DNA from: Daphnia carinata
Taxonomy: Eukaryota
Length of the DNA stretch: 64,000 nt
Assembly: GCF_022539665.2 (NCBI RefSeq)
Contig: NC_081333.1
Location: 930,001-994,000 of the forward strand
Direction: 5' to 3'
A program made the position numbers and the translations under genes. How positions within the stretch are numbered: position 1 is the stretch's first letter; each line of letters begins with the position of its first letter. Positions 40 to 43,581 of this stretch are shown one piece after another. The notes under the pieces are model-generated. The model ran no database searches. It was not told where the DNA came from and saw only the letters and a program-made list of their open reading frames with translations.

Positions 40-2765
40 TTATTCATTAATTGTTTTCTTAATTTATTTTTGTTACAGCTTTCACTTTACGCTATGTACT
101 TCGAGGACTTTGCGTTTAGCTGTGAAAACCTTATTCTTCTATAAGCAAGGCATGTCGTTTTGAGATTCCATTTTAATCATTACTAAAACATTTTCAAAAT
201 TGTATCACGTTTTCAGTGCGTCTTGTATTGCCAACGCTGCTGATGTCTGAAATAACCATGGCCTAGGTAAGGTTTGAGTCGTATAATTCTTTTATGTGCT
301 ATATTAATCTGAAGTCTTTCTTATCTGTGAAACGAGAGCAAAGAAAAGGAAGCATTCGTCTTTAAAACAACCGACTACGCAGCAACATGCAACCATGTAT
401 CTACCATTATCATAAGGGTTTGTTATTAGAAACACAGAGTTAAACATCCGGAATTGGCACAGCAGCAAAGCTTCAACTTCAAAATAGTTGGAAGCCATAC
501 AAGTAATAGTATTTATTTAAAATTTTACGCTTCTCAATCTGAAGTTGAGTGCTGAGAAGCTCTTCCCGTATTCATATATAATTGAAATGTTCAAGTGATG
601 TGAACGAGGTAGGACATCCATTTAGATCCAAATCATTCTAACATCTAGATATCTTGCGTAGTTTGTCATAAGTAATCCCTCAATCGTCCTCCATTTTACT
701 ATACCATTCTATTCCACAAATTCAAAGTTAATTCCAATTACAAAGGGAACGGCCTCCTTGCGGATATTTATTTATTACGTATAAATTTATCTTTGTTTAA
801 TGTATTTCTTTGAAAGTGAAAATGCAGGCAGAACGAAACGGAATCACTAAGAGCCGTTTTGGTCAGTGTGGGAACGGGGTGAAGTTAAATCCGGCTAAGG
901 TCTAAAGGCGAAGCCTTAAGCACGGGATTTATTTAATAAATTTACAATTCGGGTGATTTTTTTTTCTTATTTCACATCATGTAAACTATATACACACCTT
1001 TTGATTTTATGCTTAATAGGCTTTCTCGAATATACGCGGCGGATGTTTTAAAATTGCATTATGTCTGTATATTGGAGTAGGCCTATCGTAGTTTAAATCC
1101 CAGAAGTGTGTGATTCATTCCTCATCAGGGCAAAACATATAGTTAACAAGATGTCGAATTCAGTTGTCGATCGAGGAAGTTTTCAATGCTTTCTGTTGAT
1201 TTCGTCGAAGGTTTTCGGCCGGATTGCACTCAACTCGTCCCCATACTGACCGAAATGGCTCTGGATGATTTCGTTTGCTTTCCAACAGACAAACATTCCA
1301 TCTATTTCAAAGCGTGCTTTATACTTGAGAAAACCGAATACGCCTTGATAAGTCTCTGCACGTGAGGCCGTTTCCCCTGTAGGTGGAATGAAATGGTATG
1401 GTAGAATGGATGAAAATTAGATGAACTTGAATTAACAGATATTTTTCTGGATTTTTTTATCGCACACATCACGTACAGTCTACATTTTTCAATAGCAGTG
1501 GTACATATTAATCTGTCCTGATGGTGAATTAATAGAAAATTCTGATGTTCAATAATTCTTGAAATGCACAAAACTTATCTTCAAAGGATTAAGATTTTAG
1601 TTAGTGGTAATCTTAATAGCCATGTTTTTCTTGAATCGTTATAATATTTTTCCCTTCCAGATTACATTAAATCAAGGGATTGCTCTCCTACTATGATTAC
1701 AACAAGGAGTCACATCAATTCCAAACAAGTTAACAATGAAGGTTTTATGGAAAAGCACTAGCACGTAACCTGGATGAGCCCGGCGGATCTCCTTAGCCAA
1801 GGTTTAAAATGTTTTCTCTGTCTGGCTGTTACGCAAAACAAGGGTGCGTGACACATACTAAATCGGGTGAGTAATTAGTAAATAAGACCTATCGAAGTTT
1901 AATTATTCTCGGAACATTAAGAATCATCCTTATTTTCTTCTAATAGAAACTTTCTCTTTCTAGGTTACTAATATTGATGGATTTACATTGCGCCGGAAAA
2001 ATTGCAGCTAGCATCAACAGCCGTTAAAGTATGTAAATAATATGTGAACTTGCGTCACCAGGAAGTGGGTTTTGAGGACTGTTTGATTTGCCCAAAATTT
2101 TTAGTTTCCCAAGGATCTACGTAGGCGTCTCCAATTGGATACGAAACATCCTACTGACTGTCACCGTTTTACAATCTGCTGAAAGGTAATAAACGTTATT
2201 CTTGTTAGACTACTCGGTATTCTCCTGCGTGTTATTCCGCGCTATCCGATTCAGTTTTCTCTGGGCTATTTTGAGCGTGTTTTATACTTTTTACGTTCAA
2301 TCGTCTGACTCTGGGGACGAGCGCAAAAAACTAAAATGTCGTTCTTTTTGGTCAATATCTTCATTAAATTGGTATTAGCGCAAAGGGCACACAGGCGTTC
2401 GCAATACCGAACCGATTGTTTTATATGTAAATGTCGTGTTTTTGTATCATGTTGTGTGACCGACAGTTGATCTTCTAGTAATTCGTTGTTTTGACTTAAC
2501 TTTGTCATTTTGTATTTTCATTTTCTAACCGAGAAGACACAAGAAAAACCTGGTGATTATGTGTTGATATTTATACGACTAAAAGCTGGCAAGAGATGGG
2601 AAGTACTATTTTAAACAAAAACACGTAAGATTATTTATTCTTAAACTACAGTTTGATGCTGGTCAGACACGCTTGTAAAAAGCCCTGTGAAATTTCCAAT
2701 CTAAATCATGTATTTTAATGGTAATACCGAGGTTTTTTAATAAACAACTTGTTCACTAATTCTTC
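40..2765 (+). ncRNA. Candidate large fold-back (hairpin-type) lncRNA, probably starting upstream of the window
   Basis: No credible ORF. Nested + strand helices include 690-717/1383-1410 (27 of 28 paired, 3 G-U), 745-756/1364-1375, 836-913/1200-1276 (~70 bp, ~12 G-U), 185-194/1806-1815, 2007-2017/2653-2663, 2054-2062/2549-2557 and 2214-2244/2376-2410. AATAAA at 2739-2744 is followed by a U/GU-rich tract. Confidence 0.6.
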
Positions 2766-3676
2766 TTCGATTCACTTTTATTTTGGTTGTTGAGAAAAAA
2801 ACTAGATGTCGCTGTTGCGCTTCCAAAATGGTGGAATGTTTACGTGTGACAGTGGTGTAAGCAGTTAATCCTGCTTGAAAGTCTTTGTTAAAAATGTTAG
2901 ACTCCAGTGAAAAGTTGTATAAAATTAAGTACTATTAAGTGTTTTATTCCCTGTGTCGTTTTGGACGTGAAGCAAACCAAATATTTCATTTTTCATGTAA
3001 CGGGCAATCTTGCAAGCTATGCAAGCTGCCAATTCCAAACTGTCACAAATTGCTCTGTCAAAGAACTATGACCTTAGCATTCCATCATGCTACTCTGTTG
3101 CTCTATTTAGAGGTATGTAACTTGTGTGTGGCCGTTAATATTGGCATGATTCTGACTTTAACATCTAGCTTTGTAAAACTTACAACGGAAGACATACTAA
3201 CCAGTGGGAAGGTCACCAATGATAGAACCAACACACCACTGTCTCATTTTACTACCCTTTGCCTAGTCATCAGAAACAGCTTTAATCTGACTAGTGCATC
3301 ATGTCCCTCTTTGTTTGGATTCCAATGATTAACCACTACCAACCAACTTACATAGAAATGGACATCACAGCCAGTCCTGTTTGGTATTTTAAGTTTGAGG
3401 CTTATCTACTGTTGCCATTCTTTAAATATAATATCCCATCGTAGGTCTGCCGAGCCTTCTCCTTCAGCAAAATTACCAGCCCAACAACTTTTGCGTCTTT
3501 GGACAACAGGGTAAAGTAAATTTCCTTCCCTGTTATAATTATGCCAATAATATTATATTCCACATGTAGTAACGTTTTCTTCATATTTATCATTTAGAAC
3601 TATGCCATCATCTTCTGTTCCACGCAAAATTGAATCAAAATTCTAAGTTTTGCCCGTTCTTCACTTCATAATCCTT

Positions 3677-3915
3677 CGTCGCCTGGCTTTTCGCCCCGTC
3701 CGCCGCCTCGCCTGTAGCCGTCTTCGCCTCGCCCGTCGCCTCGCCCGTCTCCCCGTCTTCGCCTCGCCCGTCGCCTCGCCCGTCGCCTCGCCCGTCGCCC
3801 CGTCTTCGCCTCTCCCGTCGCCTCGCCCGTCGTCGTCGCCCTGTCATCGCCTCGTGGTCACGCCGTCTACGCCTCCCCTATCGCCCCTTCATCACCTCGT
3901 GGTCGCCTCGTCTTC
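3677..3915. repeat. GC-rich minisatellite, ~12-bp unit CGCCTCGCCCGT and variants
   Basis: Tandem TCGCCTCGCCCG/TCGCCCGTC units are visible. They explain the spurious ORFs 3635-3847 and 3650-3964. Confidence 0.9.
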
Positions 3916-3957
3916 GTGGTATGGTTGTGTTTTGTTTTATGTTGTATTATGTTTTGC

Positions 3958-4283
3958 AAACTAACACGTTGGCTGCCACCCACCCACTTTGATCCCCTTT
4001 TTTTTTGTAGCTTGACAGGGACGGGCCGCGCTGTTCTGCTCCATGGTCTATCTGCCATGGGGTGGAGCAGCGCCACTGCCCAAGATTGGCCGAATGGCCC
4101 CTAGGCAACGCACCACAGGGAATTCCCTTTTCCGATGCGGCTGATGAGACCTGGGGTGTGCGTTCCCAAAAAGGTCTCATCGCCGTGTCAGCCCGGCCTA
4201 CCCGGCCCCCTTGGTCGCTATCCCTAGGATAGCGACACTAGCGACAGTAGAAAATGGTGGCGTGGCAGCCAACGTGTTAGTTT
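3958..4283. mobile_element. MITE-like element (326 bp) with 22-bp perfect terminal inverted repeats
   Basis: AAACTAACACGTTGGCTGCCAC (3958-3979) and GTGGCAGCCAACGTGTTAGTTT (4262-4283). GC-rich non-coding interior with hairpins GATGAGACCT..AGGTCTCATC and GTCGCTATC..GATAGCGAC. No clear target-site duplication. Confidence 0.75.
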
Positions 4284-4653: not shown

Positions 4654-4815
4654 TAAAATGGATTATCGAAGTAAGAATATTAAATGAAGAAAGAAATTAG
4701 AAGAATGCCAAGCAGAAAACACAAGACCAAGCAATATAAAAAAAAAGAAAGGGCAGAGTAAGAAAGCAGTTAAAAACATAAGTTTTGCTATTTTTTGTTA
4801 AAAAAAAATAAATTG

Positions 4816-5311
4816 TATTGACATTACTCTGCACATATAAATGATTTTGCAACTTTAAAAAGGCACAATAGCCCTTTCAAAAGTTGCCGTCAACCCAGGC
4901 AGGGGGAGACACTGCCTTGTTGACCCACCGGGGAGATTACCCGGTGATTGGCTAAGAGAAGCCGGAAGAAGAGCCGAAGATATGGAACATTTTTACAGGA
5001 GCGATTAACCTTTAGTTCGGATTTGTGGATAGCCACGTCGCCCTCCGTGAACACATCATCGGACTAAGCGGACACCCCACGTCCCCTTTCCGGCCAGAGC
5101 CCTCCAAACCTCGGTATATGTTATTTTTATATATACCGTACAGTAGGGGCATGACCCCCTACGGGCTTATTACGAGTCAAGGGGAAACGGGGCTACGGAA
5201 AGGAAGGGAGCCCAGATATGCACTTCAATTTTTTAAATATCAAATACCGTCTCGGGAATCCGAATGAATTATAGAAATATCATGTCATCCATCCAATCAT
5301 TACAATTTATT
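4816..5311 (-). repeat. Structured repeat module, copy 1 (left arm of a ~500-bp inverted repeat)
   Basis: Near-identical reverse complement of 6952-7447. Confidence 0.95.
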
Positions 5312-5399
5312 CAGTGTCATGCCCCAACCAAGAATTTTTTCAGATCCAATGTTACTATTAACCTACACTGAGAAAAGAAAAACAACACCATTAAGCATC

Positions 5400-6770
5400 T
5401 CAATTGTTGCTCATGTGACTTACATGACTCATAGATTCAACTTCTGGCAGAAGCTCGGGAAAGGCCATACAAATTGTAGATGAAAATCATTGTATAAGGC
5501 TCTTGAAGGATAAAATAACACCCCTAGAATGTTGCATTGTTGATAGTTGTGTTCCCAGTATGCTGAAAATCCTTTCCTATTGGATAAATTTTTTTTGTAG
5601 ATTAGACATGGTTGGCAAAAAGGAGAAGAAAAGCTTCATCATAAATTCAAAAATTTTTCAAGAAAATTCCTTTCATACCTAAAGAGTCCATGTATGATGT
5701 TCATCGCTGCAATGCCAGTGAAGTGAAACATCTTTAGGGCCATTTAAGTACCCAGCTTCACCAACACTCTGAGTGTAAAGGACAAGTTGTTCTTTAGCAA
5801 GAGAAGCAGAATTATTTGAGGCTTCTAGCTATAACAGAACTATAAAGGATTGCTGTTACACAGGATTCATTCACACAAGATGGTACTTCTCATTAGACAA
5901 TTTGCATACTCTATTACTTTACCTCATACCTTAATGGTAATGCACTTTCAGTGTTTTTCAACTGTAGGCTCACTCTTCCATCCTGTAACACTTCTAGACT
6001 TGACTTGATCCCCCACTAGAATTCTGTGAATGCAAAATAATAGCATTAAAAATACTGTTTCGATAGACAAAAAACCGAAAAGTACCTAATTCCTGTTTTA
6101 TGTTGAACTCATGCTATTTCTGGGTTTCCGTACCACACCCATTTTCAGCCCAAATACGGTCCCACAATTGTTCACTTCCTTTGCTGCCTGGACTTATTAC
6201 TAACAATTCTTTTAGTGCAGCACTAACAGAATTTAACTTTAACACACTGTCAGGTGGTAGACTGAATAACTAAGCAATAAATAATTGTTTGTTAAAATTC
6301 TATACTTATTTTGAATTCTTATTTGAAAAGTTTAGGTACCTGACTGTGTTCGCCTAATGCCAATTCATCCTCATGTTCAGTTAGGGATGAGTTTGGAAAA
6401 ACCTCCTTCACTGTTTGGAAACTGTTCCATTCCAATTTGTTCTTTTCCCCTAGCTGAGCTTGTAGACTCAAAATTTGAGCTACAAAACACAAATGAATAA
6501 AAGCAAATAAATAGAATCATTATGTATAAGCCCTTACCATCCTTAGCTTTGCTGTTATCTAATATTTTGTGTTGTTCCAATAATTGGGCCTGCAGCTTCA
6601 TAATTTGATCTAATAAACAATAATTAATAATTGAAAAGCAATATAATAATGTTTATACTTACCATCCTTTTGTTGTATTATCTTATCCATTTTTCAATTG
6701 TTCCTCCAGCCACGCGTTATTCTCTCCATCCACGCTACTGAACTAACTGCGAATGGCATCCAATGGACTG
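5400..6770 (-). pseudogene. Decayed transposon cargo gene with a Ulp1/C48-like cysteine protease relic
   Basis: The minus strand gives HFTGIAA (5725-5705) and then, after a frameshift, YMDSLG (5694-5677), resembling the Ulp1 H..Y(Y)DSL motifs. Many stops. GT donor remnants at ~6537 and ~6662. Confidence 0.4.
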
Positions 6771-6951
6771 AAATTGCCTACGCCAGTAATAACGAGTCTG
6801 AGCGGTAGATGGCTACGTGTCGGAAAAAAAGAAAAAAGTGTGATTTTTTTTTTTTTTTGGCGACATTTTTTTTTTTTTTTGTGTAAAAAAAAAATGTCGG
6901 AAAAAAAAAAATCGCACTTTTTTCTTTTTTTAATAATTCTTTTTTTTCTGT

Positions 6952-7447
6952 AATAAATTGTAATGATTGAATGGATGACATGACATTTCTATACTTCATT
7001 CGGATTCCCGAGACGGTATTTTATATTAAAAAAATTGAAGTGCATATCTGGGCTCCCTTCCTTTCCGTAGCCCCGTTTCCCCTTGACTCGTAATAAGCCC
7101 GTAGGGGGTCATGCCCCTACTGTACGGTATATATAAAAACAACATATACCGAGGTTTGGAGGGCTCTGGCCGGAAAGGGGACGTGGATGTCCGCTTAGTC
7201 CGATGATGTGTTCACGGAGGGCTCTGTGGTTACCCACAAATCCGAACTAAAGGTTAATCGCTCCTGTAAAAATGTTCCAAATCTTCAGCTCTTCTTCCGG
7301 CTTCTCTTAGCCAATCACCGGGTAATCTCCCCGGTGGGTCAACAAGGCAGTGTCTCCCCCTGCCTGGGTTGACGGCAACTTTTGAAAGGGCTATTGTGCC
7401 TTTTTAAAGTTGCAAAAATAATTGTAATGTGCAGAGAATTGTCAATA
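6952..7447 (+). repeat. Structured repeat module, copy 2 (right arm of the inverted repeat)
   Basis: Matches 4816-5311 (inverted) and 22337-22765 (direct). Contains a series of hairpins. Confidence 0.95.
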
Positions 7448-7546
7448 AATTTTTTTTTATAAAATATTTTTTGCAAAATTCGTTTCTTTCATTGTCTGTG
7501 TTAGCTGTGTTTACAATTACCAATTTTTTTTTTATTTATCTTGCTC

Positions 7547-7912
7547 AAAAAAAAATTTTAAGCCCGACTAAATAAGCCCGGCTAAGTATATAAGAAAAGT
7601 TGGGCTTAAAAATTTTTCTGCAAAACCTAGCACTCATCGGAATTGATTGAAAATCACAAAATGTACTAAAAATTGAATGCTGATTCCGGTAAAATTGCTA
7701 TTTTTTTCATTAAGTTAATCGTTTTTTAGATACACTGAATATTTGGCGCAATGCTAGCACGCCAGTACGCTACAGTGCTAGTGCGATGCAGCAGAAATGT
7801 TCGGTGAGTGTATGTGGAGAACTAATTAGAAATCTGACCGCTAGATGGTGATAGCAGTAGAACAGAAAAAAAAGCCGATACTTTTTTTTTGGGGGTAAAA
7901 CGGATTGCCATG
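7547..7912 (+). repeat. Element-end repeat block (AAGCCCGACT palindrome plus CTCF-like motif segment)
   Basis: 7547-7809 matches 24481-24710 inverted. 7800-7880 matches 24711-24790 direct. 7837-7912 matches 20987-21076 inverted. Confidence 0.85.
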
Positions 7913-9019
7913 CACTGATGGCGGAAGCACTTTAGAAGAATGGGTATTTCTAGAACGTTGCCAAATAGGAGTATAGATTTTGGGTGTACACGTTTCATAT
8001 GGAGTCAAGCATTCAACGCAGTCAACCTAACTGTTGAATGCTGAGTCTGTTATTCTTCCACTGCCTCAGCTTCTTGCTGACGACAGTCTTAGAACCATTC
8101 TGGTTCTATGAAGTTATATCGTTAAAATCCCGATTGTTATGTTTAAAAACATGTTCTGATTATGTAGTATTTATTATTATGCTTTTCTTCAGTTCAAGGG
8201 AAAAGCGACGAATTCTAAAGAAAAAAATCAAAATGCCGGAACCGTAATACAATGTCAGGAGTTAAAGTTTACGAAAAAGAAAAGTTTTTTATTGCTGTTT
8301 AATGTCAGGTAATTCTGCTTTAACCGTGAGGGCAGCAAGTATAATTTTTTCTTAGCATGGTTGAATCGTCTGTTTTAGAATAAGTCTAAAATAATTTTAC
8401 GTTGAGTTTGCATCACCGACGTTATCAACTTGCTTTTAGGAAGCAGTTGGTATCTTTCCTCTTTTGTAAATTTCGACGTATTCTCAGCCAACATTCCATT
8501 TCGTTAAAACGTATGTAAGAACATTTCATGACTAACTTCTCCGATTAGAATGATACCGCCACCTTATGCAAGTAGATGTTCTACTTCCGTATCCTTTTGT
8601 CATTCCCATATTGTTCTTAACATTTCATGAATCGGAAGAGGACCTTCATTTACGTGTGGCGAAGCTCCTGCTTGCACTAGTCTCATTTCCAGTCAGAAAT
8701 TGATTTATCGAGCATTGCAATGCGTTACAACAAAGACCGATGGACATTACCGCGCAACATTGGTTCTACGATTTTGAAGATGTTTATCAAGACTACTTCA
8801 AGTTTGAAAATTACCAAATTGTAGTATGAAAAACCCATTGGTTCGATTGACGAGCCTCGTCAATCTTTAGAAGACGAAAAAAAAATATTTCCTTTTAAAA
8901 TACCAGATGTAGAATGGATTCCTTGTATTCGGTGATGACTATGAATACGTTACTTGAATTTACGATCAGATGACGTGAAATTTGGGTATAGAATTCGCGG
9001 GCAGTGAAATTGGAATGTT

Positions 9020-11339
9020 TTAATCGACCTCTTCGATGGTTGGGCCTGATCCCGCACCAGGGGCAGGACCTGGGCCAGCGCCGGCACCACCAGGGAAACC
9101 AGGAGGAGCACCACCAGCTCCTTGGTACAACTTGGTGACGATGGGGTTGCACACTCTTTCAATTTCCTTCTGCTTATGCTCAAACTCTTCTTTATCAGCC
9201 AGCTGGTTTGCGTCCAACCATTTAATGATCTCGTTGCATTTGTCCATGATTGTTGTTTTATCAGCATCAGATAGTTTGTCCTTGAACTTTTCATCCTCAA
9301 CAGTAGACTTCATGTTAAAGCAATAGGACTCCAACGCGTTCTTGCCAGACACGCGTTCGCGCTGCTTTTCATCTTCAGAACGATAACGCTCGGCATCCGA
9401 CACCTATTCATTAAACTTAATGATAGAGCAGAAGACTAGACGTGATAAATAATTTTCAGTACCATTTTTTCGATTTCTTCCTTGGACAATCGACCCTTGT
9501 CATTGGTAATGGTAATTTTGTTCTCGCGACCAGTCGACTTGTCGGCAGCAGACACATTCAAAATACCGTTGCTATTTAAAAAAAAAAAATGAAATAGCAT
9601 GCATTACTGGTCTGTCTGATCCTTTTTTTCCACAAAATAATATTGCTTACGCGTCAATATCGAAGGTAACTTCAATTTGCGGAACGCCACGCGGGGCAGG
9701 CGGAATACCGGTGAGTTCGAATTTCCCCAAAAGGTTGTTATCCTTCGTCTACCAATGTAAGTTTTTTAATGTCAGTAGCGTTTCTTACTTTTAATTTAAA
9801 AAAGCATAAAATTATTCACCATAGCACGCTCTCCTTCGTACACTTGAATCAATACTCCCGGTTGGTTGTCAGAGTAAGTAGTGAAAGTTTGGGTTTGTTT
9901 GGTTGGAATAGTGGTATTGCGCTTGATGAGTGCAGTCATAACACCTCCAGCTGTTTCAATGCCCAAGGATAGAGGGGCGACATCCAGCAGAAGTAGATCT
10001 TGAACAGCTTCCGATTTGTCACCCTAATAAAGGATGTGAGAATGACGGAAGAATGGAATTTCATTTTCTTTCAACTTACTTGAAGGATTGCAGCTTGAAC
10101 AGCAGCGCCATAAGCAACAGCCTCATCGGGGTTGATTGACTTGTTCAATTCCTTTCCATTGAAAAAGTCTTGCAACAGTTTTTGAACTTTCGGAATACGA
10201 GTTGAACCACCGACAAGTACAATATCTTGAATCTGAGCCTTGTCCATTTTAGCGTCACGGATAGCCTTTTCAACGGGCTCCATGGTGGATCGGAAAAGAT
10301 CGGCATTCAATTCTTCGAAGCGAGCTCTCGTGATACTAACAATAAAACGTTAATAAACACGAACTGCCAGATGATCAATATTGTATGTACCTCGTGTAGA
10401 AATCGATACCCTCGAAGAGAGAATCAATTTCAATGCTAGCTTGAGCAGATGAGGATAGAGTACGCTTGGCACGTTCGCAGGCAGTACGGAGGCGACGAAG
10501 AGCACGCTTGTTGGTAGCCATGTCCTTCTTGTATTTACGTTTAAACTCTTGAACAAAGTGGTTCACCATGCGGTTGTCGAAATCCTCTCCTCCCAAATGG
10601 GTATCTCCAGCAGTTGACTTGACTTCAAAGATGCCATCCTCGATAGTTAGGATAGAGACATCAAAAGTTCCACCACCGAGGTCAAAGATGAGCACGTTAC
10701 GCTCTCCGCCAACCTATTTTTAATGAAATTATTTAAATAAATAGACTATTAAATTAGGAACAGACTTTATACCTTTTTATCTAATCCATAGGCAATGGCA
10801 GCAGCAGTAGGCTCATTAATGATACGAAGAACATTTAGGCCAGCAATTGTTCCTGCATCTTTAGTGGCTTGTCGTTGGGAATCATTGAAGTAGGCAGGGA
10901 CAGTAACAACAGCATTGCTAACAGTTTTGCCCAAGTAGGCTTCAGCAGTCTCCTTCATCTTGAGCAACACCATGGAAGAAATCTCTTCAGGGAAGAAGGT
11001 TTTTGTTTCATTCTTGTAATCAACTTGAATTTTGGGTTTTCCTCCATCACTGACTACTTCAAATGGCCAATGCTTCATGTCAGCTTGAACAACCGTATCT
11101 TCAAACCGACGCCCGATCAACCGTTTGGCATCGAAAACTGTGTTGGTTGGGTTCATAGCAACCTGGTTTTTAGCGGCATCACCGATGAGACGTTCGGTAT
11201 CGGTAAAGGCGACATAGGATGGTGTAGTGCGATTACCCTGATCGTTGGCGATGATTTCAACTTTACCATGCTGAAATACACCGACGCACGAGTAGGTAGT
11301 ACCCAAATCGATACCCACAGCTGGAGTTTTGGCGGCCAT
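9020..11339 (-). CDS. Hsc70: Cytosolic heat shock cognate 70 kDa protein (HSPA8/Hsc70-4-like), 7 coding exons
   Basis: [53 protein letters not shown]-terminal GPTIEEVD*. Six short GT-AG introns in the CDS plus a 5'UTR intron at 11346-11689. Confidence 0.98.
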
Positions 11340-11415
11340 TATGTTCTATAGAATTAATGTACAACATTATACACATAATTCAACATCTTAATTATTTTAT
11401 GTTCAGATTTTAAAG

Positions 11416-20210: not shown

Positions 20211-21914
20211 AATCAACCAACATGTTGGCGGGACATCTCGTCACCCAGTCGGCTGATCAAAACAATTTTCAACAGATCTCAATTGCTGAAAAAAATTTCC
20301 AGCTTGAACAGGAAATCCACAACAGGGGAGTTTTCTCACATCACACATTCACAAACAGCTCGCCTAAGCACTCTTTGGTTCACGTTGTTTTTCAATTATT
20401 TTGAATTTTTTTTTTTTACAAAGTCTTATGACTACCAAAGACTGCCTTACCTTGTGTAGGACCGTTTTTCATTTACGAGAGGCACAAGTTTAAAGTCACA
20501 CCAGTTATTGAGTTTTGAATTTTTTCTGTTTTTACGTGGGTTATGGTTCGGTATTTTTTTTTTATAAAATACATTTTCGTAATTCTTTTTACTGGAGAAT
20601 ATGCGAAGTGTGGTGTGTAAACTGCATCGGGGGCTGTTAGCGTGGTCAGTAAGACGACAGCTGACTTCTGAAAACAGTTTGGAATCGAGTTCTGTTTTGG
20701 AAATGTAGAGGAGAGGAGTAAACTAGCTCTAAACAGCAGTTCGGCGCGTCCTTCTTATGTGGATGTTTATAAAAAGGAGAATAATTCGAAGAATTTTTGT
20801 TTGCTGAAATCCTTGTTGGCTAACCTGTAGTTCTACTAAGTTGGAGTAAGACAATCCCGGAATTATGCTCCGTTCATATTTCGAATAAAAGTTATGGAAA
20901 AAAAAACTCTTTTACCTCAAACTGAAAGAATTCGTAAATTAACTATAAAGCCTTGGGCTCGGAACTTATTGCCGAAGACCCGGGATGTATGGCAATCCGT
21001 TTTACCCCCCCCCCCCCAAAAAAAAAAAAATATCGGCCTTTTTTTGCTGTTTCACTGCTATCGCCACCTACCGGTCGGTAGATGGTGACAGCAACCGAAA
21101 CAAATGCCAGCAAAAAGCAAACAAATGCCAAAGGTGAGACATGCTGGAAAAGCTTGATACGAATGTGTAGGCGTAGTTTTGGAATTCAGAGGTGCTAGCC
21201 GGATGTTTGGAAAAACTTCAGTTAAATTTGGTTTCAATTCAATATGTTTTACTTATTATTTGTGTGATTACGCAAAGGATTGCGCCATCCAGGCAATGTG
21301 GATATTCTGCCATGTACATGATAAACCTAGGATTCTTCGCCAACATGCAAGATGTTACCCCCTGGTAATGCTTTTCCGCTGAGTTTGTTTAGTTTTCTAT
21401 TTTTAATCGTCAATGTCGTATTAGCAAACTACTGTTGACAGAAAAGCTGATACATTGCGACAATGGTTACAGCAAGTGGGATGAATAAATCAGCATAGGT
21501 CAGTTGCCGTGCCTTCCCAATTGCAACGAAGACGAATCATGGAGTCAAAAACAATAAAAGGTGGTACTATTTTAATTGTTTTAATTGATATATTGCCAAG
21601 TGCTGATGATATGTGTGTAGAACATGCTGGAATTCATGTCATCCTGGAGAGGACTAAAAAAAAAAGTAGCTGTATCCATGAAGCAGCTCATTAGTCATGT
21701 TCCAAACCATTGCCTGCATCAGCCAGCAATCTTTCAATGGCTAACAAGCATTTAATAGTTTTGAAAATCGCGGTTTGCACTCCCAGAGGCGACATTCCTA
21801 AATCCCACCTGTCAAAAAATTTATGCAACAATTTCTATTCTGAACTGACGCCTACCAAATTCTTTTTCCATAAAATGAGGTGATATGAGGTTATAAAGGA
21901 AATTGTCGTCAAGA

Positions 21915-22336: not shown

Positions 22337-22765
22337 ATTCCCGCGTATTACGGTATTAATTATTTAAAAATTGAAGTGCATATCTGGGCTCCCTTCTTTT
22401 CTGTAGCCCCGTTTCCCTTTGATTTGTAATAAGCCCGTAGGGGGTCATGCCCCTACTGTGATCAGCAGCAAAGGTTGTGAGTGCGCTGTCTGGAAAGGGG
22501 ACGTGGGGGTCCTCATGGTCCGATGATATCATTGGAGGGCTATGGGGCTACCCAAAAATCCGAATTAACAGTTAATCGCTCACGTAAAAGCTTGTCCGAA
22601 ACCTTCGCTCTTCTTCCGGCTTCTCTTAGCCACGCACCGGGTAATCTCCCCGGTGAGTCAACTGAGGTAGTGTCTCCCCCTACCTTGGTTGACAGCAACT
22701 TTGAAATCGGCTATTTTGCCATTTCAAAGTTGCACGTCTTTAAATTGTGCAGAGTATTGTCAATA
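22337..22765 (+). repeat. Structured repeat module, copy 3 (diverged)
   Basis: Direct homologue of ~7004-7447. Stems are preserved by compensatory changes. Confidence 0.92.
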
Positions 22766-23089
22766 CAAATTCCTTAAAAAAAAATTACAGATCTTGTCTT
22801 TGTTACTGTCATGGTGTTGCTCTGCACTTTTCACTATTGTGAACATCTTTTTATTTATGTCGTAATGTCATTCTATTGAAGTTCACGTTGTATTTTCAAT
22901 TTTTGCTGCTCCCAGTCATGAGCGAATACTTCGTTATTATACGACTTCATTGTTTATGGAACGATGCACTTTAATCTCCCTTCATGGAGATTCTATAACT
23001 TTTAGTGCATTAATGATACTGAATTGTATACATGCATTGTATATTAAATTTGCCATTATGAATTATATTTATTTATTCAATCTTATTCT

Positions 23090-23562: not shown

Positions 23563-26500
23563 TATTACACGATTTCCAATTGGTTAACAAATAGTTTCGT
23601 AAGCGTCAAAAAATATCGTAGACAATTTCATCAGGATCTTTTCATTTTATCATACAATATCTTTGTGGTAAAGCACCGACAGCCAAGGTCATGGTTTCAA
23701 TATACTAACTGAGATGGAAAGTCAATGTTTTATGCAGAGTGTGCATCATTGAAAAACAATTTTCCTCTTCATACACTAGAAGCATTAATTAAGGTTCAAC
23801 TACTATTATATATTTTTTGACAATTGTTACAAATTTCCTTCTAGTGATAAAGGTATGCTGTTAGCGATGTTCAGTCAAGAATGGCACAAGAATATATTTT
23901 GCTAACTGTTTGCCATACAGTTGCTAATACCTCATTATGCATCCTACTCACACTCTTCGTTGGTTCTCACAAATCTCACATTTGGGTTGTTTTACTCACA
24001 TTCCTTAGAAATAACTCTTTTTAATAACACATATGATTGGTACTTATGGAGTGTTACAATACTATTTACTTGTCATGCATTCTTCCTTTTGAAGGCTTTC
24101 GGGATCAATTACGGCTGCACAACTTCTGAATTACAATAGGTTGGATTTCATATATGTTGACAACCTCAATACTGAAATTTATCCTATAGATCACAGATGT
24201 ATTAATCAGCTAAAAAGGATATAAATTTTTTAATCTCGTGCTATAAAATATTGTGATATAAATACGTTCCTCGTCTAAACTTACATAATACATAAGATAG
24301 TAGAAAGATTGGGTAAAACTTATGTTCTCCTGATAGTCAGTTTCACAATACTGTTCTTTAACCATCAAATGTTTGTTTTTTATATCTTTGAGCATAACAT
24401 AAGGGGGTTCTCTAAAAGTCCGCAACGAACGCCACGAGTAATGCTACCCATATCTGCATTGTATTATGGCAATCCGTTTTGCTCACCGAATATGTCTGCC
24501 GCAGCGCGCTAGCATTGCGTCAAATACTCGTTGTATTTCAAAAACGATTAACTTCATAACAAAAATAGAAATTTTCCCGGAATCAGCATTCAATTTTGAG
24601 TATATCCTGAGATATTCAACCAATTCCGGTGAGTGTCAGATTTTTCAGAAAAAATTTTTAAGCCCGACCGAGAAAAGTCGGGTTTATTTAGTCGGGCTTA
24701 AATTTTTTTTTTCGGTCAGTGTATGTAGAGAATTAACTAGAAATGTGACCGGTAGATGGCGATAGCAGTAAAACAGAAAAAAGGCCAATAATTTATTTCA
24801 ACAGAACTACAATATTTAAATGCTCAAAATGGTAAATCCTTTAATTGCACCAGTTAGCGTGAGCAGGTCATCCCATTTTAATTGATCAACAACTTCGGAC
24901 AACGTAATGCGATTCCAGAGTGTGAAAAATGTTTCTCCCCATCCATATGACAGTGGGGCAGTATAAGCAAAGAAGAATGGGATTAACTATTCGCATCATC
25001 ATTGCAAAAAAATTAGTACATTATTTAGTATTTTAAATGAGTTATAACCCTTGGATCTAGCAAGTTCATTCCCATTATCTCAAGCATTTGGTAGTGATTA
25101 GTTTTTCAACGAAAAAGTTTAAATCTGAAATCGCCATAATTAGATTTTGGACCTTAAAAATGCACGTCGACCTCTAATAGCCATTGCCCAACCAATATTT
25201 TAAAAACTTGCAGATGCTCTCAAACAAGATCGGCATTAATGTCCATTGCTAATTTTTATTATGACAATAAATTTTTTTTTAGCATCATCTTATCAACCAG
25301 AATTTCAGCTAATAGCTCATAGATTTTATCTTTACTTCTCCATCGCCATACAAAAACGTTGAAAGCATATTCGCATATAGCGATACGGTGTGACATTTAG
25401 TAATACTTATAGTTTTTGCGCTGACAACACGTAGAATACATTTCTGCAGCCGTGTAAATGAAACGAGAGTGTCACACAGTCCGAGCAGCGAAAGATTGAA
25501 ATGCCCAGTAATTAATTTTGTAGATAAAAGAGACAAGAGTAAAATATATAGTCTGCCGAAGAGGGCAGTTACGCGTTAAAGAGACCTGAAACTTGCTGAT
25601 AAAGATCGTGTGTAACCTGTTCAAACACGGTACATGGCGTTTTTTCTTTGTTTTTTTTTGCTGTACCTTGTTTGAAGTTCCCTCCTTTTTTAGAGGTTTT
25701 CCCACGGATCTTTCCCCCACATATATCCTTCTTTACATACTTTCCGATGAGACGCCTCGCTCGCTAATATTCACACACAGAGACACACAGAAAACCTTGT
25801 CGACAAGTTACGACGAAAATGTTTTGTGTCCATGGGAAAAAAAAAAAAATAAAATAAAACAACATTTTAAAAACTGATGCTCGACGTGTTTGCCTACGGT
25901 TGTCGTATCCGCAGGTAGCCGTGTTTTTGTTTTCAATCAACAGTTTGAATAGTTCAGTTTCCATTTCAAATAATTATTGGTTTTCACGCTTTGTTTGTTC
26001 TAGAAATAAATAATTCATTTCAGTTTACAATTGATAGACCAAAGGACGAGTTAAAAAAAAAAAAAAAAAGATGGCCGTTGCCAAAAGTGGAGAATGTTTC
26101 TCTAAGTGAGCTTTTTACATACGAAAATGCTTAGGTAATAAAGATTGTAGAATGTTTGGCTTAAGCTGAGAATGCCAATTTGTTTGCCGGATGTGATATA
26201 ATACGTTGCTGACCCTCAGTGCCCCACGGCCTCCTTTGAAGTGGTGTGTTTTTGTCCAGCTGAATTGATCCAACAACAGAGTGGCTCACTAATGTTACTC
26301 AGCCCTCTACTCTTTTTTTTTTTTTTTTTAACACTGGCCCAAGGTCTTGGTTCATTCCCAGCTTCTTTCCGTATGTTATTTTCTTTTCCCACCAGCAATC
26401 TGAGAAATATACATAACACCGCAAGGACAGATCTGAGAAACGAAAACTTCTCAGCGGCGGAATTCACACACTTGGCCTGGAATTTCTTCATGTCGCTATA

Positions 26501-33496: not shown

Positions 33497-33500
<4 letters not shown>

Positions 33501-33556
<56 letters not shown>
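33501..33556. repeat. (GA)28 microsatellite
   Basis: Pure GA tract ~0.9 kb upstream of the NRARP-like ATG. Confidence 0.98.
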
Positions 33557-33558
<2 letters not shown>

Positions 33559-41300: not shown

Positions 41301-43365
41301 TTCATGACGGTGGAGATTCTTCATCCCCCTCTTTTTTTTTTCTTTCTATTTGTTAAGCGTTGAGCTTCTTGGGTTCCTTTGTGGTTTTTAGACCGAACGC
41401 GTCGAGCAAAAACGTGCGAAGAAAATGCCTATTTCTCAAATGGCGGCAACGTTGCTGTGGTTTGCCGCAGGCCACGGCGCCATCTTGAGAACAACGAAGA
41501 ATTGGATGATAAAGAAAACGTTTTCAGCCGGTAAACAAACCCAAAAAGTATAACGAGTTTTTCTTTTTCTTGTTCAAACGTCTAATCTTGTTTTTGTTCG
41601 ATGTGATCTCCGAATGATGATGGGATCCAACATGTTTCTCCCTGCCGATCGGTGTTACATTCTTCGCTTAATCTCTTTCACATCCAAGTGTTCTCTTTCA
41701 CACACACAAAAAAACATCCAGTTCTTGGAAGACATTGATGATAGTTCACCTGTATTCCCCTTAGAATGTCTCTCTAGTGACATGATGGCAAACAATGAAG
41801 AATAAAAAAAAAACATGTGTGGACGGAAACAAACAAGATGGCGATATGCCCAAAGGAGCACGAGGATAGACTCCCTTTTCTCGGAACATTCAAAACCAGG
41901 TGCAACATATTTTGGACGGTAATCACACGCAGGTGTAACATACGACTTTAATATTTTTGTTTCTTTCCACGTCATCGCTAATCATTTCAGCATCGAATTT
42001 CCGCCATTTCTTTTTCTCGCAACGCCATTTTTTTCATATGCAAATGAGTGACAAAACGTCATGTTTTTTTCCGCTCAAAGACAGTTCGAAAAGGTCATGT
42101 GAACCAGAGAAAAACTGTCCCATAGAGTCAAAAAGCCGCCATGTCCCCCTTTCCTCTTAAAAAATATCTACACATATTTTTATATTTTTTTTTGAAAAAA
42201 AAAAGGGGGGAGGGATTTCCTTCACCCCCTCCCGCTTTTTTTAAGCAGAGAAAAATGATGGGTTTTTCTTTGTACGTGTAGAGAAAAAAAAAAACGGGGT
42301 AGAGAAGAGATGATGATGACCACTTCTTCTGACTTTGTGTGTGTAGGCCTCAACGGCTTTTCACTAGCCATATCTAAGCAGCCCGTCGAATACTGGAGAG
42401 CAACAAAAAAGAAAAAGGCTTAATCCATCCTGTTTCCCACGTTCACATCCGTCACAAGGAATGAACAATGTTCTACATGGATATGTTTAGCATCTAAAAG
42501 ACACACAAAAACGTGCGGTACTCATAATTACGGACAGTCCATTATTCAAAACCAGCTTCGATAATGATCAACCATGGCCTTATTAGCGAATGTTGGTTGT
42601 CCAAAAAACAAAAGGAAGCGAACTGTTGTGGATTAAGCAGACGAAAAAAAAATGTCTGGTTTGATCAAGACGATGACGTCACTAGTTCCGCACAGTTAGC
42701 ATGGGAATGGAGAGACGACCGAGTCTCAGGAAACGGATAGAGGAACTGGGTATTCCGGTTCTCACATCATCTCTCATGAACGTTACCACGAGTTCCCGAA
42801 AAAGAGAGACACGGTTACCCGTGGAAAAAATGTACATAGGGGGTTCACACCTCCCCTCGAAAAATCATGCCCCGTTTGAAAAAGAGGGACGGGGATACAC
42901 ACACAAAAAAAAAGCCTCTCTTTTTATGATCTCCCCTCCACGGCCGACAGCATTCCCTGCCTCTTCTTCCCATCAACCCTCAAAGTACACACACACATTT
43001 TGACAATGAGGATCGATAACGAACTGGCAATTTTTTTTAACGGACACTCTCACTGAAAAACAGACGTTTTTTTTTGTCAAAACGCGCCACGCTAATTGAA
43101 ATCTTTTAATAATCAATTTGTAAGTATCGGGGGGGGGGGGGGGAATGAATGTTACTAATTAGCCAATTATTTTGAAGAAAAAAAAAACATTTATGGTTGG
43201 GAGCTGCGGAGGAATCGATGATCGGGAAATGCTGACACGAGATTGGGAAGACAAACGGCGCGTGATTCGAAAGTTTTGGTGAAAGAAAATGCGTGCCCAC
43301 TTCCCCTATACAGAAAATCAAACGGCTTGTACTTATCAAGGAGAAAGAGAGACGCTAGAGAGACG

Positions 43366-43581
<216 letters not shown>

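What the first reader, a model, noticed from the sequence alone, without database searches (positions are those of the whole stretch)
40..1875. Giant G-U-rich fold-back RNA domain (~1.8 kb) in an ORF-less locus
Seen: helices nest concentrically around ~1010: 923-931 region with 1094-1101, 836-913/1200-1276, 745-756/1364-1375, 690-717/1383-1410, 255-268/1791-1804, 185-194/1806-1815, 109-120/1825-1837 and 40-48/1866-1874. Side hairpins occur at 472-481/540-549 and 373-382/654-663. In 836-913/1200-1276 I count about 12 G-U pairs against about 2 A-C mismatches on the + strand. A neutrally decaying DNA inverted repeat should give both classes about equally. Inference: the pairing is selected in a + strand RNA. 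Established analogue: Drosophila hpRNA genes, which are long imperfect fold-backs diced into endo-siRNAs. I do not recognise it as rRNA, 7SK, SRP, or RNase P/MRP, so it may be an undescribed structured lncRNA or siRNA source.
Basis: partly seen in the sequence, partly recalled or inferred. Interest (0 to 1): 0.9.

Follow-up and report, generated by a model that had tools for sequence, protein, structure and literature searches.

The report
Spliced fold-back RNA in water flea
The water flea Daphnia carinata makes a spliced, apparently non-coding RNA whose large middle exon is predicted to fold back into a 740-base imperfect double strand, likely a source of small silencing RNAs like the hairpin RNAs of fruit flies.

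Summary
Partly confirmed. The window is Daphnia carinata DNA. A fold-back is real but spans about 740 nt (682-1418), not 1.8 kb: core z -11; the flanks fold no better than shuffles, and three named outer helices use intron bases. New evidence: contigs of one public run join six splice junctions that read GT-AG or GC-AG on the + strand. The core lies inside a 1,530-nt exon (337-1866) of a multi-exon RNA with no open frame above 72 codons on that strand; its 5' end lies upstream of the window. The arms are an old inverted duplication (67% Watson-Crick). The G-U argument is weaker than claimed: 13 G-U to 6 A-C (p 0.17); the + strand preference beats symmetric nulls (2 of 112; 0 of 70) but not a null with the G-U total fixed (12 of 135). 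No Rfam family, known Daphnia miRNA, orthologue or target was found. Best reading: a hairpin-RNA-like Dicer-2 substrate (0.4). Rivals: neutral relic (0.27), giant or nested miRNA precursor (0.2). No small-RNA data could be examined.

The parts
682..1418 (+). Fold-back core: imperfect inverted repeat, arms about 662-1035 and 1067-1439, axis near 1050; 229 pairs with probability above 0.5, 30 of them G-U
827..912 (+). 5' arm of the longest duplex (73 bp, 12 G-U, with 1201-1283); holds an 11-bp and a 23-bp uninterrupted helix (836-846/1266-1276; 850-872/1240-1262)
1201..1283 (+). 3' arm of the longest duplex
682..772 (+). 5' arms of the two basal duplexes (682-717/1383-1418, 32 bp; 738-772/1347-1382, 31 bp)
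1347..1418 (+). 3' arms of the two basal duplexes; carries the one listed sequence difference in the run (position 1383, at a helix end)
993..1112 (+). Apical hairpin of pre-miRNA size (46 bp, 9-nt loop); 1005-1100 folds at z -5.62 on + against -2.40 on -
79..149 (+). Exon; its 3' end is shown by a joint, its 5' end (acceptor AG ending at 78) is inferred; transcript continues upstream of the window
150..216 (+). 67-nt GC-AG intron
217..266 (+). 50-nt exon
267..336 (+). 70-nt GT-AG intron
337..1866 (+). 1,530-nt exon that holds the fold-back; covered by three contigs (335-962, 964-1320, 1352-1866)
1867..1963 (+). 97-nt GT-AG intron; minor alternative acceptor at 1946
1964..2028 (+). 65-nt exon
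2029..2104 (+). 76-nt GT-AG intron
2105..2185 (+). 81-nt exon
2186..2536 (+). 351-nt GT-AG intron, seen both spliced and retained; part 2330-2430 has diverged look-alikes in other contigs
2537..2760 (+). Likely last exon; AATAAA at 2739 and contig cover falls after about 2760 (3' end inferred)

Best explanation
This is a spliced + strand RNA of Daphnia carinata, apparently non-coding, whose 1,530-nt exon carries an old inverted duplication predicted to fold into a 740-nt imperfect stem, and it likely works as a hairpin-RNA-type substrate that Dicer-2 would cut into short silencing RNAs. Shown: the inverted repeat, its folding energy, the splice junctions and their strand, the lack of a long open frame in the visible exons. 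Inferred: one polyadenylated transcript from upstream of the window to about 2760; origin by inverted duplication; weak selection on the + strand fold. Untested: dicing of the 73-bp duplex (room for about three 21-nt duplexes) and of the 31-46 bp duplexes, loading into Argonaute-2, and silencing of a homologous target elsewhere in the genome.
For: Six joints in 147-2534 read GT-AG (five) or GC-AG (one) on +. Core z -11.05 on +. Arms align along their whole length, 233 of 346 columns Watson-Crick, as in a duplication. + strand advantage of 48-49 kcal/mol is reached by 2 of 112 orientation-randomised versions and 0 of 70 neutrally decayed repeats matched for alignment score; pairing is clustered in blocks (8 of 314 simulations reach the top-three block score). 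Fly hairpin RNAs are spliced, polyadenylated, detectable in RNA-seq and can arise within existing non-coding transcription units (PMC10317233, passages and section 5 part 1). D. pulex has two Dicer-2-type genes and an RNAi Argonaute (PMC2685406, passages).
Against: No small-RNA data seen. No target: arms match nothing else in the window, and the 77-codon antisense frame found no credible protein; the genome was not available. The stem is broken: longest ungapped block 47 nt at 79% Watson-Crick, against about 400 bp for CG18854, and Dicer-2 cut a more mismatched substrate less well (PMC11840564, passages). G-U to A-C counts are not significant (13:6, p 0.17; 12:6 in well-paired context). With the G-U total fixed, 12 of 135 permutations reach the observed asymmetry. 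The best-strand energy itself is reached by 9 of 70 neutral simulations and the best single block by 29 of 314. Contigs run through both arms, so uncut RNA is present. One run, one study.
Confidence: 0.4

Rival explanations
1. The fold-back is a neutral relic: an old inverted duplication or decayed long-terminal-inverted-repeat transposon that sits in an exon of a non-coding RNA; its G-U tilt would come from transcription-linked mutation bias, not selection.
For: Both strands fold strongly. G-U excess not significant. Fixed-total permutation 12 of 135. Neutral decay reaches the best-strand energy in 9 of 70. The neighbourhood is rich in repeats, with a 509-nt inverted-repeat element at 4804-7458. 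A-to-G and C-to-T changes on the RNA-like strand both make G-U, not A-C (own reasoning; the bias was not measured in Daphnia).
Against: Symmetric nulls reached in 2 of 112 and 0 of 70. No second copy in 64 kb and no diverged contigs listed over 337-1866, unlike 2330-3100 (8 differences not shown). The apical hairpin is strongly + specific.
Confidence: 0.27
2. It is a lineage-specific giant or nested microRNA precursor: Drosha would crop either at 849/1265 (11-bp lower helix, 22-nt duplex 849-870/1244-1265, 373-nt structured inter-arm region) or the apical hairpin near 1024/1080, and Dicer-1 would release one duplex.
For: Daphniidae carry the longest crustacean miRNA precursors, up to a 330-nt Dicer-excised region; such loci are easily missed (PMC12553114, sections 6 parts 1-2 and 15). 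D. magna pre-mir-750 holds a nested hairpin (PMC6828783, passage). A CNNC lies 18 nt after the 1265 cut. The apical hairpin has pre-miRNA size.
Against: No match to the D. magna precursors listed in part 1 of 2 of the file (by eye), none for the motifs searched in the held part of the MirGeneDB table or in two D. magna supplements; no Rfam miRNA hit. Pairing continues below both putative basal junctions. No CNNC for the apical or basal option. D. carinata has 67 predicted miRNAs against 66 in D. magna, so no obvious gap. Spliced RNA with the stem intact is present.
Confidence: 0.2
3. The stem acts uncut: as a binding or editing platform for double-stranded-RNA proteins (ADAR, Staufen) in a scaffold lncRNA, or as part of a long intron-bearing 3' UTR of a gene that begins upstream of the window.
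For: Intact RNA covered by contigs. The contig gap at 1321-1351 begins and ends at paired adenosines, which would fit editing but equally alleles. A 39-codon frame is open from the first visible exon to a stop at the end of exon 217-266.
Against: No A-to-G difference is listed in the exon (contigs drop rare variants). The frame through exon 79-149 found no protein of 94-2000 residues (weak evidence). At least four introns would lie after that stop.
Confidence: 0.13

Closest known systems
Drosophila hairpin RNAs (hpRNA1, hp-CG18854/esi-1, hp-CG4068, hp-mir-997-1, Nmy/Tmy, hp-ODox)
   Same: Spliced non-coding transcript with a long imperfect inverted repeat inside; repeat fragments elsewhere in the transcript (PMC10317233 passages; here).
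   Different: Crustacean host; stem far more broken (67% Watson-Crick, six duplexes of 19-73 bp); no target or parent gene found; no small-RNA or Dicer-2 evidence.
Giant miRNA precursors of Daphniidae and Lepidoptera (mir-375, let-7, mir-278, mir-750; mir-12)
   Same: Same animal family; long, highly paired region between two arms; nested hairpin as in D. magna mir-750.
   Different: No conserved mature miRNA recognised; pairing continues below the candidate Drosha sites; inter-arm distance (373 nt) would exceed the longest crustacean case reported (330 nt).
Foldback/MULE-type long inverted repeat transposons
   Same: Two arms of about 375 nt in inverted orientation; an element with 509-nt inverted ends lies 3 kb away.
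   Different: Arms only 67% alike with a 30-nt spacer, no homology to that neighbour, no second copy in the window, whole repeat exonic.

Membership tests
Drosophila-type hairpin RNA | mRNA-like spliced primary transcript | tested here: met
   six canonical joints on +; cap and poly(A) tail not seen, AATAAA at 2739
Drosophila-type hairpin RNA | long intramolecular inverted repeat in the mature RNA | tested here: met
   core lies wholly in exon 337-1866 and keeps its helices in the spliced model
Drosophila-type hairpin RNA | 21-22 nt small RNAs from the duplex arms | not testable with these tools
   no small-RNA run listed
Drosophila-type hairpin RNA | Dicer-2 dependence (siRNAs lost, precursor raised in mutants) | not testable with these tools
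   criterion from PMC10317233 section 5 part 1; Dicer-2-type genes exist in D. pulex
Drosophila-type hairpin RNA | homology of the arms to a target gene or transposon | tested here: inconclusive
   none in the window or by protein search of one antisense frame; genome not held
Giant canonical miRNA precursor | conserved mature miRNA with perfect seed and star partner | tested here: not met
   no Rfam hit at E up to 10; no match by eye to listed D. magna precursors; motif searches blank. Does not exclude a lineage-specific miRNA
Giant canonical miRNA precursor | lower stem of about 11-13 bp with single-stranded flanks and Microprocessor motifs | tested here: inconclusive
   11-bp helix and CNNC at +18 for the 849/1265 option, but pairing continues below it
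Giant canonical miRNA precursor | one miRNA/star duplex, no reads between, Drosha and Dicer-1 dependent | not testable with these tools
   criterion from PMC12553114
Foldback or MITE transposon | many dispersed copies with near-identical terminal inverted repeats | tested here: inconclusive
   single copy in 64 kb, no diverged contigs listed over the exon; genome-wide copy number not testable
rRNA, 7SK, SRP, RNase P/MRP, snoRNA and other Rfam families | covariance-model match at the family threshold | tested here: not met
   0 matches at gathering score in 64 kb; three chance matches each in 1-2600 and 2150-2800
Telomerase RNA (TTAGG repeat, recalled for Daphnia) | template longer than one repeat in the RNA | tested here: not met
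   longest template-sense match 6 nt in 1-2800
snoRNA host gene | C/D or H/ACA RNA in an intron | tested here: inconclusive
   no C box in 5 introns; H-like and ACA boxes in 2186-2536 but no Rfam match

The most novel reading that the evidence does not exclude
A crustacean hairpin-RNA gene, arisen independently of the fly ones, whose one stem feeds both pathways: a Drosha-type cut or nested pre-miRNA-sized hairpin at the tip, and Dicer-2 dicing of the lower duplexes. It would show endogenous hairpin silencing outside Drosophila and offer a source for the giant miRNA hairpins of Daphniidae.
Probability: 0.12. Interest if true: 0.8.

Novelty: new member of a known kind. Interest (0 to 1): 0.45.

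Why it matters
My searches listed no paper on a hairpin-RNA locus or fold-back lncRNA in Daphnia or another crustacean; only titles and abstract starts were seen for most. Fly hairpin RNAs silence selfish and testis genes (PMC10317233). A water-flea example would show whether this is a general arthropod use of Dicer-2, in an animal with a duplicated Dicer-2 and unusually long miRNA hairpins. The locus gives exact exon and duplex coordinates, so existing Daphnia small-RNA data can test it at once. If the arms prove neutral, it is an ordinary lncRNA holding an old inverted repeat.

Tried and rejected
No whole genome is held, so copy number, target and upstream exons could not be searched. Sequencing-run search: no RNA holder listed on record; of 2 runs laid, X1 gave spliced contigs and X2 gave 0 contigs, which is no evidence. 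A degenerate 20-nt arm motif gave 30 metagenome loci, none extending beyond 21 nt and none matching the rest of the window: chance; 0 in viral contigs. So no orthologue and no covariation test. Rfam blank; no tRNA. Pfam blank for 8 and 7 short frames apart from one hit at E 0.18. The 77-codon antisense frame 1183-1416: 0 of 40 candidates; 4 phmmer hits were summed weak matches to repeat proteins; Atlas blank. Frame through exon 79-149: 0 of 1 candidate (shorter proteins not searched). Seed-level likenesses to miR-92 (1222-1243) and miR-1 (1384-1404) were seen by eye, and others against recalled miRNAs; several such near-matches occur, so they are treated as background. Telomerase template and snoRNA boxes not found or inconclusive. 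The tiled background was not centred on repeat axes and is not used. The nulls rest on slightly different alignments (66 and 62 mismatch sites) and are not strictly comparable. Earlier-findings look-ups returned nothing.

Full report
Source. The window holds intron-rich hsc70, Abi, Nup214 and myotubularin genes (names recognised from the translations). A Nup214 exon is 100% identical to a Daphnia carinata protein and 92% and 91% to D. magna and D. sinensis. No whole genome is held.

The fold. A strand-symmetric alignment pairs 662-1035 with 1067-1439: 233 Watson-Crick, 37 G-U, 28 A-C and 48 other columns. The region 670-1430 folds at -266.3 kcal/mol on + (z -11.05, 0 of 20 shuffles) and -217.1 on - (z -8.36, 0 of 20). 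Against 41 other 760-nt windows its two-strand mean is -241.7 where composition predicts -175.7, sd 10.7. It resolves into six duplexes of 32, 31, 27, 73, 19 and 46 bp. Outside 682-1418 nothing exceeds shuffles: 337-680 z -1.0, 1420-1866 z +1.14, outer left against outer right z +0.28, -0.39 and -1.84 for three choices of flank. Three of the ten named helices have zero pair probability and one has 0.21. The 1.8-kb domain therefore shrinks to about 740 nt.

It is an RNA on the + strand. The run search listed two runs, neither on record as RNA. Laid on the window, contigs of X1 skip introns of hsc70 and Abi, so it is cDNA; X2 laid nothing. At the locus, eight joints were listed; six fall in 147-2534. 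They correspond to introns 150-216 (GC-AG), 267-336, 1867-1963 with an alternative 1867-1946, 2029-2104 and 2186-2536 (all GT-AG) on +. One 824-nt contig runs from the exons before 264 through 962; others cover 964-1320 and 1352-1866. Cover falls from 259.6 to 13.3 after 2760, near an AATAAA at 2739; two more such hexamers inside the big exon are crossed by contigs. That all exons belong to one transcript, and that it starts upstream of the window through an acceptor at 78, is inferred. The spliced model has no + frame above 72 codons and keeps all core helices. Arms 185-194 and 1867-1874 are intronic. Only one difference is listed in the 1,530-nt exon (1383), while 2330-3100 shows diverged look-alikes (8 differences not shown). 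The gap 1321-1351 starts and ends at paired adenosines; the letters in the variant branches were not shown, so editing is a hint only.

Is the fold selected? The + strand energy advantage is more telling: z -4.3 against genomic windows, 2 of 112 when each transition mismatch is flipped at random, 0 of 70 in neutrally decayed repeats matched for alignment score, with block clustering at 8 of 314. Against this, the best-strand energy is reached by 9 of 70 and the best block by 29 of 314, and with the G-U total fixed 12 of 135 permutations reach the asymmetry. A-to-G and C-to-T changes on the RNA-like strand both create G-U, so a transcription-linked mutation bias could mimic selection (own inference). 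The nearby transposon ends give 4 G-U to 6 A-C. These tests overlap and the region was chosen after the fact. Selection is suggested, not shown. The apical hairpin is the most strand-specific part (z -5.62 against -2.40).

What it is not. No Rfam family, no telomerase template, no protein relic, no second copy in 64 kb, no orthologue in metagenome or viral contigs.

Mechanism. A spliced non-coding RNA with an exonic inverted repeat is the anatomy of Drosophila hairpin RNAs, which Dicer-2 cuts into 21-22 nt siRNAs and whose arms match target genes or transposons (PMC10317233; passages and section 5 part 1 of 4). D. pulex has two Dicer-2-type genes and an RNAi Argonaute (PMC2685406, passages; PMC2592633, passages). 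I give this 0.4: the stem is much more broken than the roughly 400-bp CG18854 duplex, mismatches lower Dicer-2 cleavage (PMC11840564, passages), uncut RNA is present, and no target was found. Daphniidae also carry giant miRNA precursors (PMC12553114: outline, passages, sections 6 parts 1-2 of 3, 15 and 28). The main duplex has an 11-bp lower helix under a 22-nt duplex and a CNNC at +18, but pairing continues below it and no known Daphnia miRNA matches (PMC6828783: passages, supplement file 2 part 1 of 2 and motif searches; PMC4569176: supplement motif search only; MirGeneDB table held cut at 14,689 rows). Two supplement files of PMC12553114 were too large to read and may hold the D. carinata miRNA predictions. 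That reading gets 0.2, a neutral relic 0.27, and an uncut scaffold or long 3' UTR 0.13. D. magna piRNA clusters are long one-strand non-coding RNAs with transposon fragments (PMC9175491, passages); the repeat-like 3' part fits that loosely, and it was not tested.

Novelty and verdict. Five literature searches listed no Daphnia or crustacean hairpin-RNA locus; earlier scan findings were blank. The feature is real, smaller than claimed, and newly shown to lie in a spliced + strand RNA. It works most plausibly like a hairpin RNA; membership is unproven because the defining small-RNA tests could not be run. Interest 0.45.

Noticed in passing
window 4804-5311 and 6952-7458: 509-nt inverted ends, 95% identical, with a third diverged copy at 22350-22830 (77-78%). 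The interior is covered by many contigs and spliced on the - strand (joints 6479-6538, 6609-6663); five of its short frames have no Pfam match. Looks like an expressed non-autonomous long-TIR transposon.
   Followed up: partly
window 3690-4283: GC-rich 12-mer tandem array at 3690-3841 next to a small element with 28-nt inverted ends at 3958-3984 and 4256-4283.
   Followed up: no
window 2330-2430, 2580-2640, 2703-2744: Short stretches of the last intron and exon have diverged look-alikes in other contigs with unrelated flanks: repeat fragments or paralogous RNAs. 2340-2430 does not fold above chance; no Rfam match.
   Followed up: partly
window 2186-2536: This intron is seen both spliced and retained; it holds H-like boxes at 2325-2328 and an ACA at 2463.
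   Followed up: partly
window 2842-3450: A separate multi-copy + strand spliced unit (joints 3110-3167, 3382-3444); the 129-codon frame at 2939-3328 has no Pfam match.
   Followed up: partly
window 9020-11345: hsc70 gene on the - strand; the contig listed over 10771-11071 differs at 21 positions and one bin has no cover, which may be a paralogue or the tool's human-likeness filter.
   Followed up: no
window 7547-7914: Dispersed repeat matching 24504-24798 and 20986-21076 at 78-85%.
   Followed up: no
window 43341-43578: GA microsatellite of 118 units; another of 29 units at 33500-33557.
   Followed up: no
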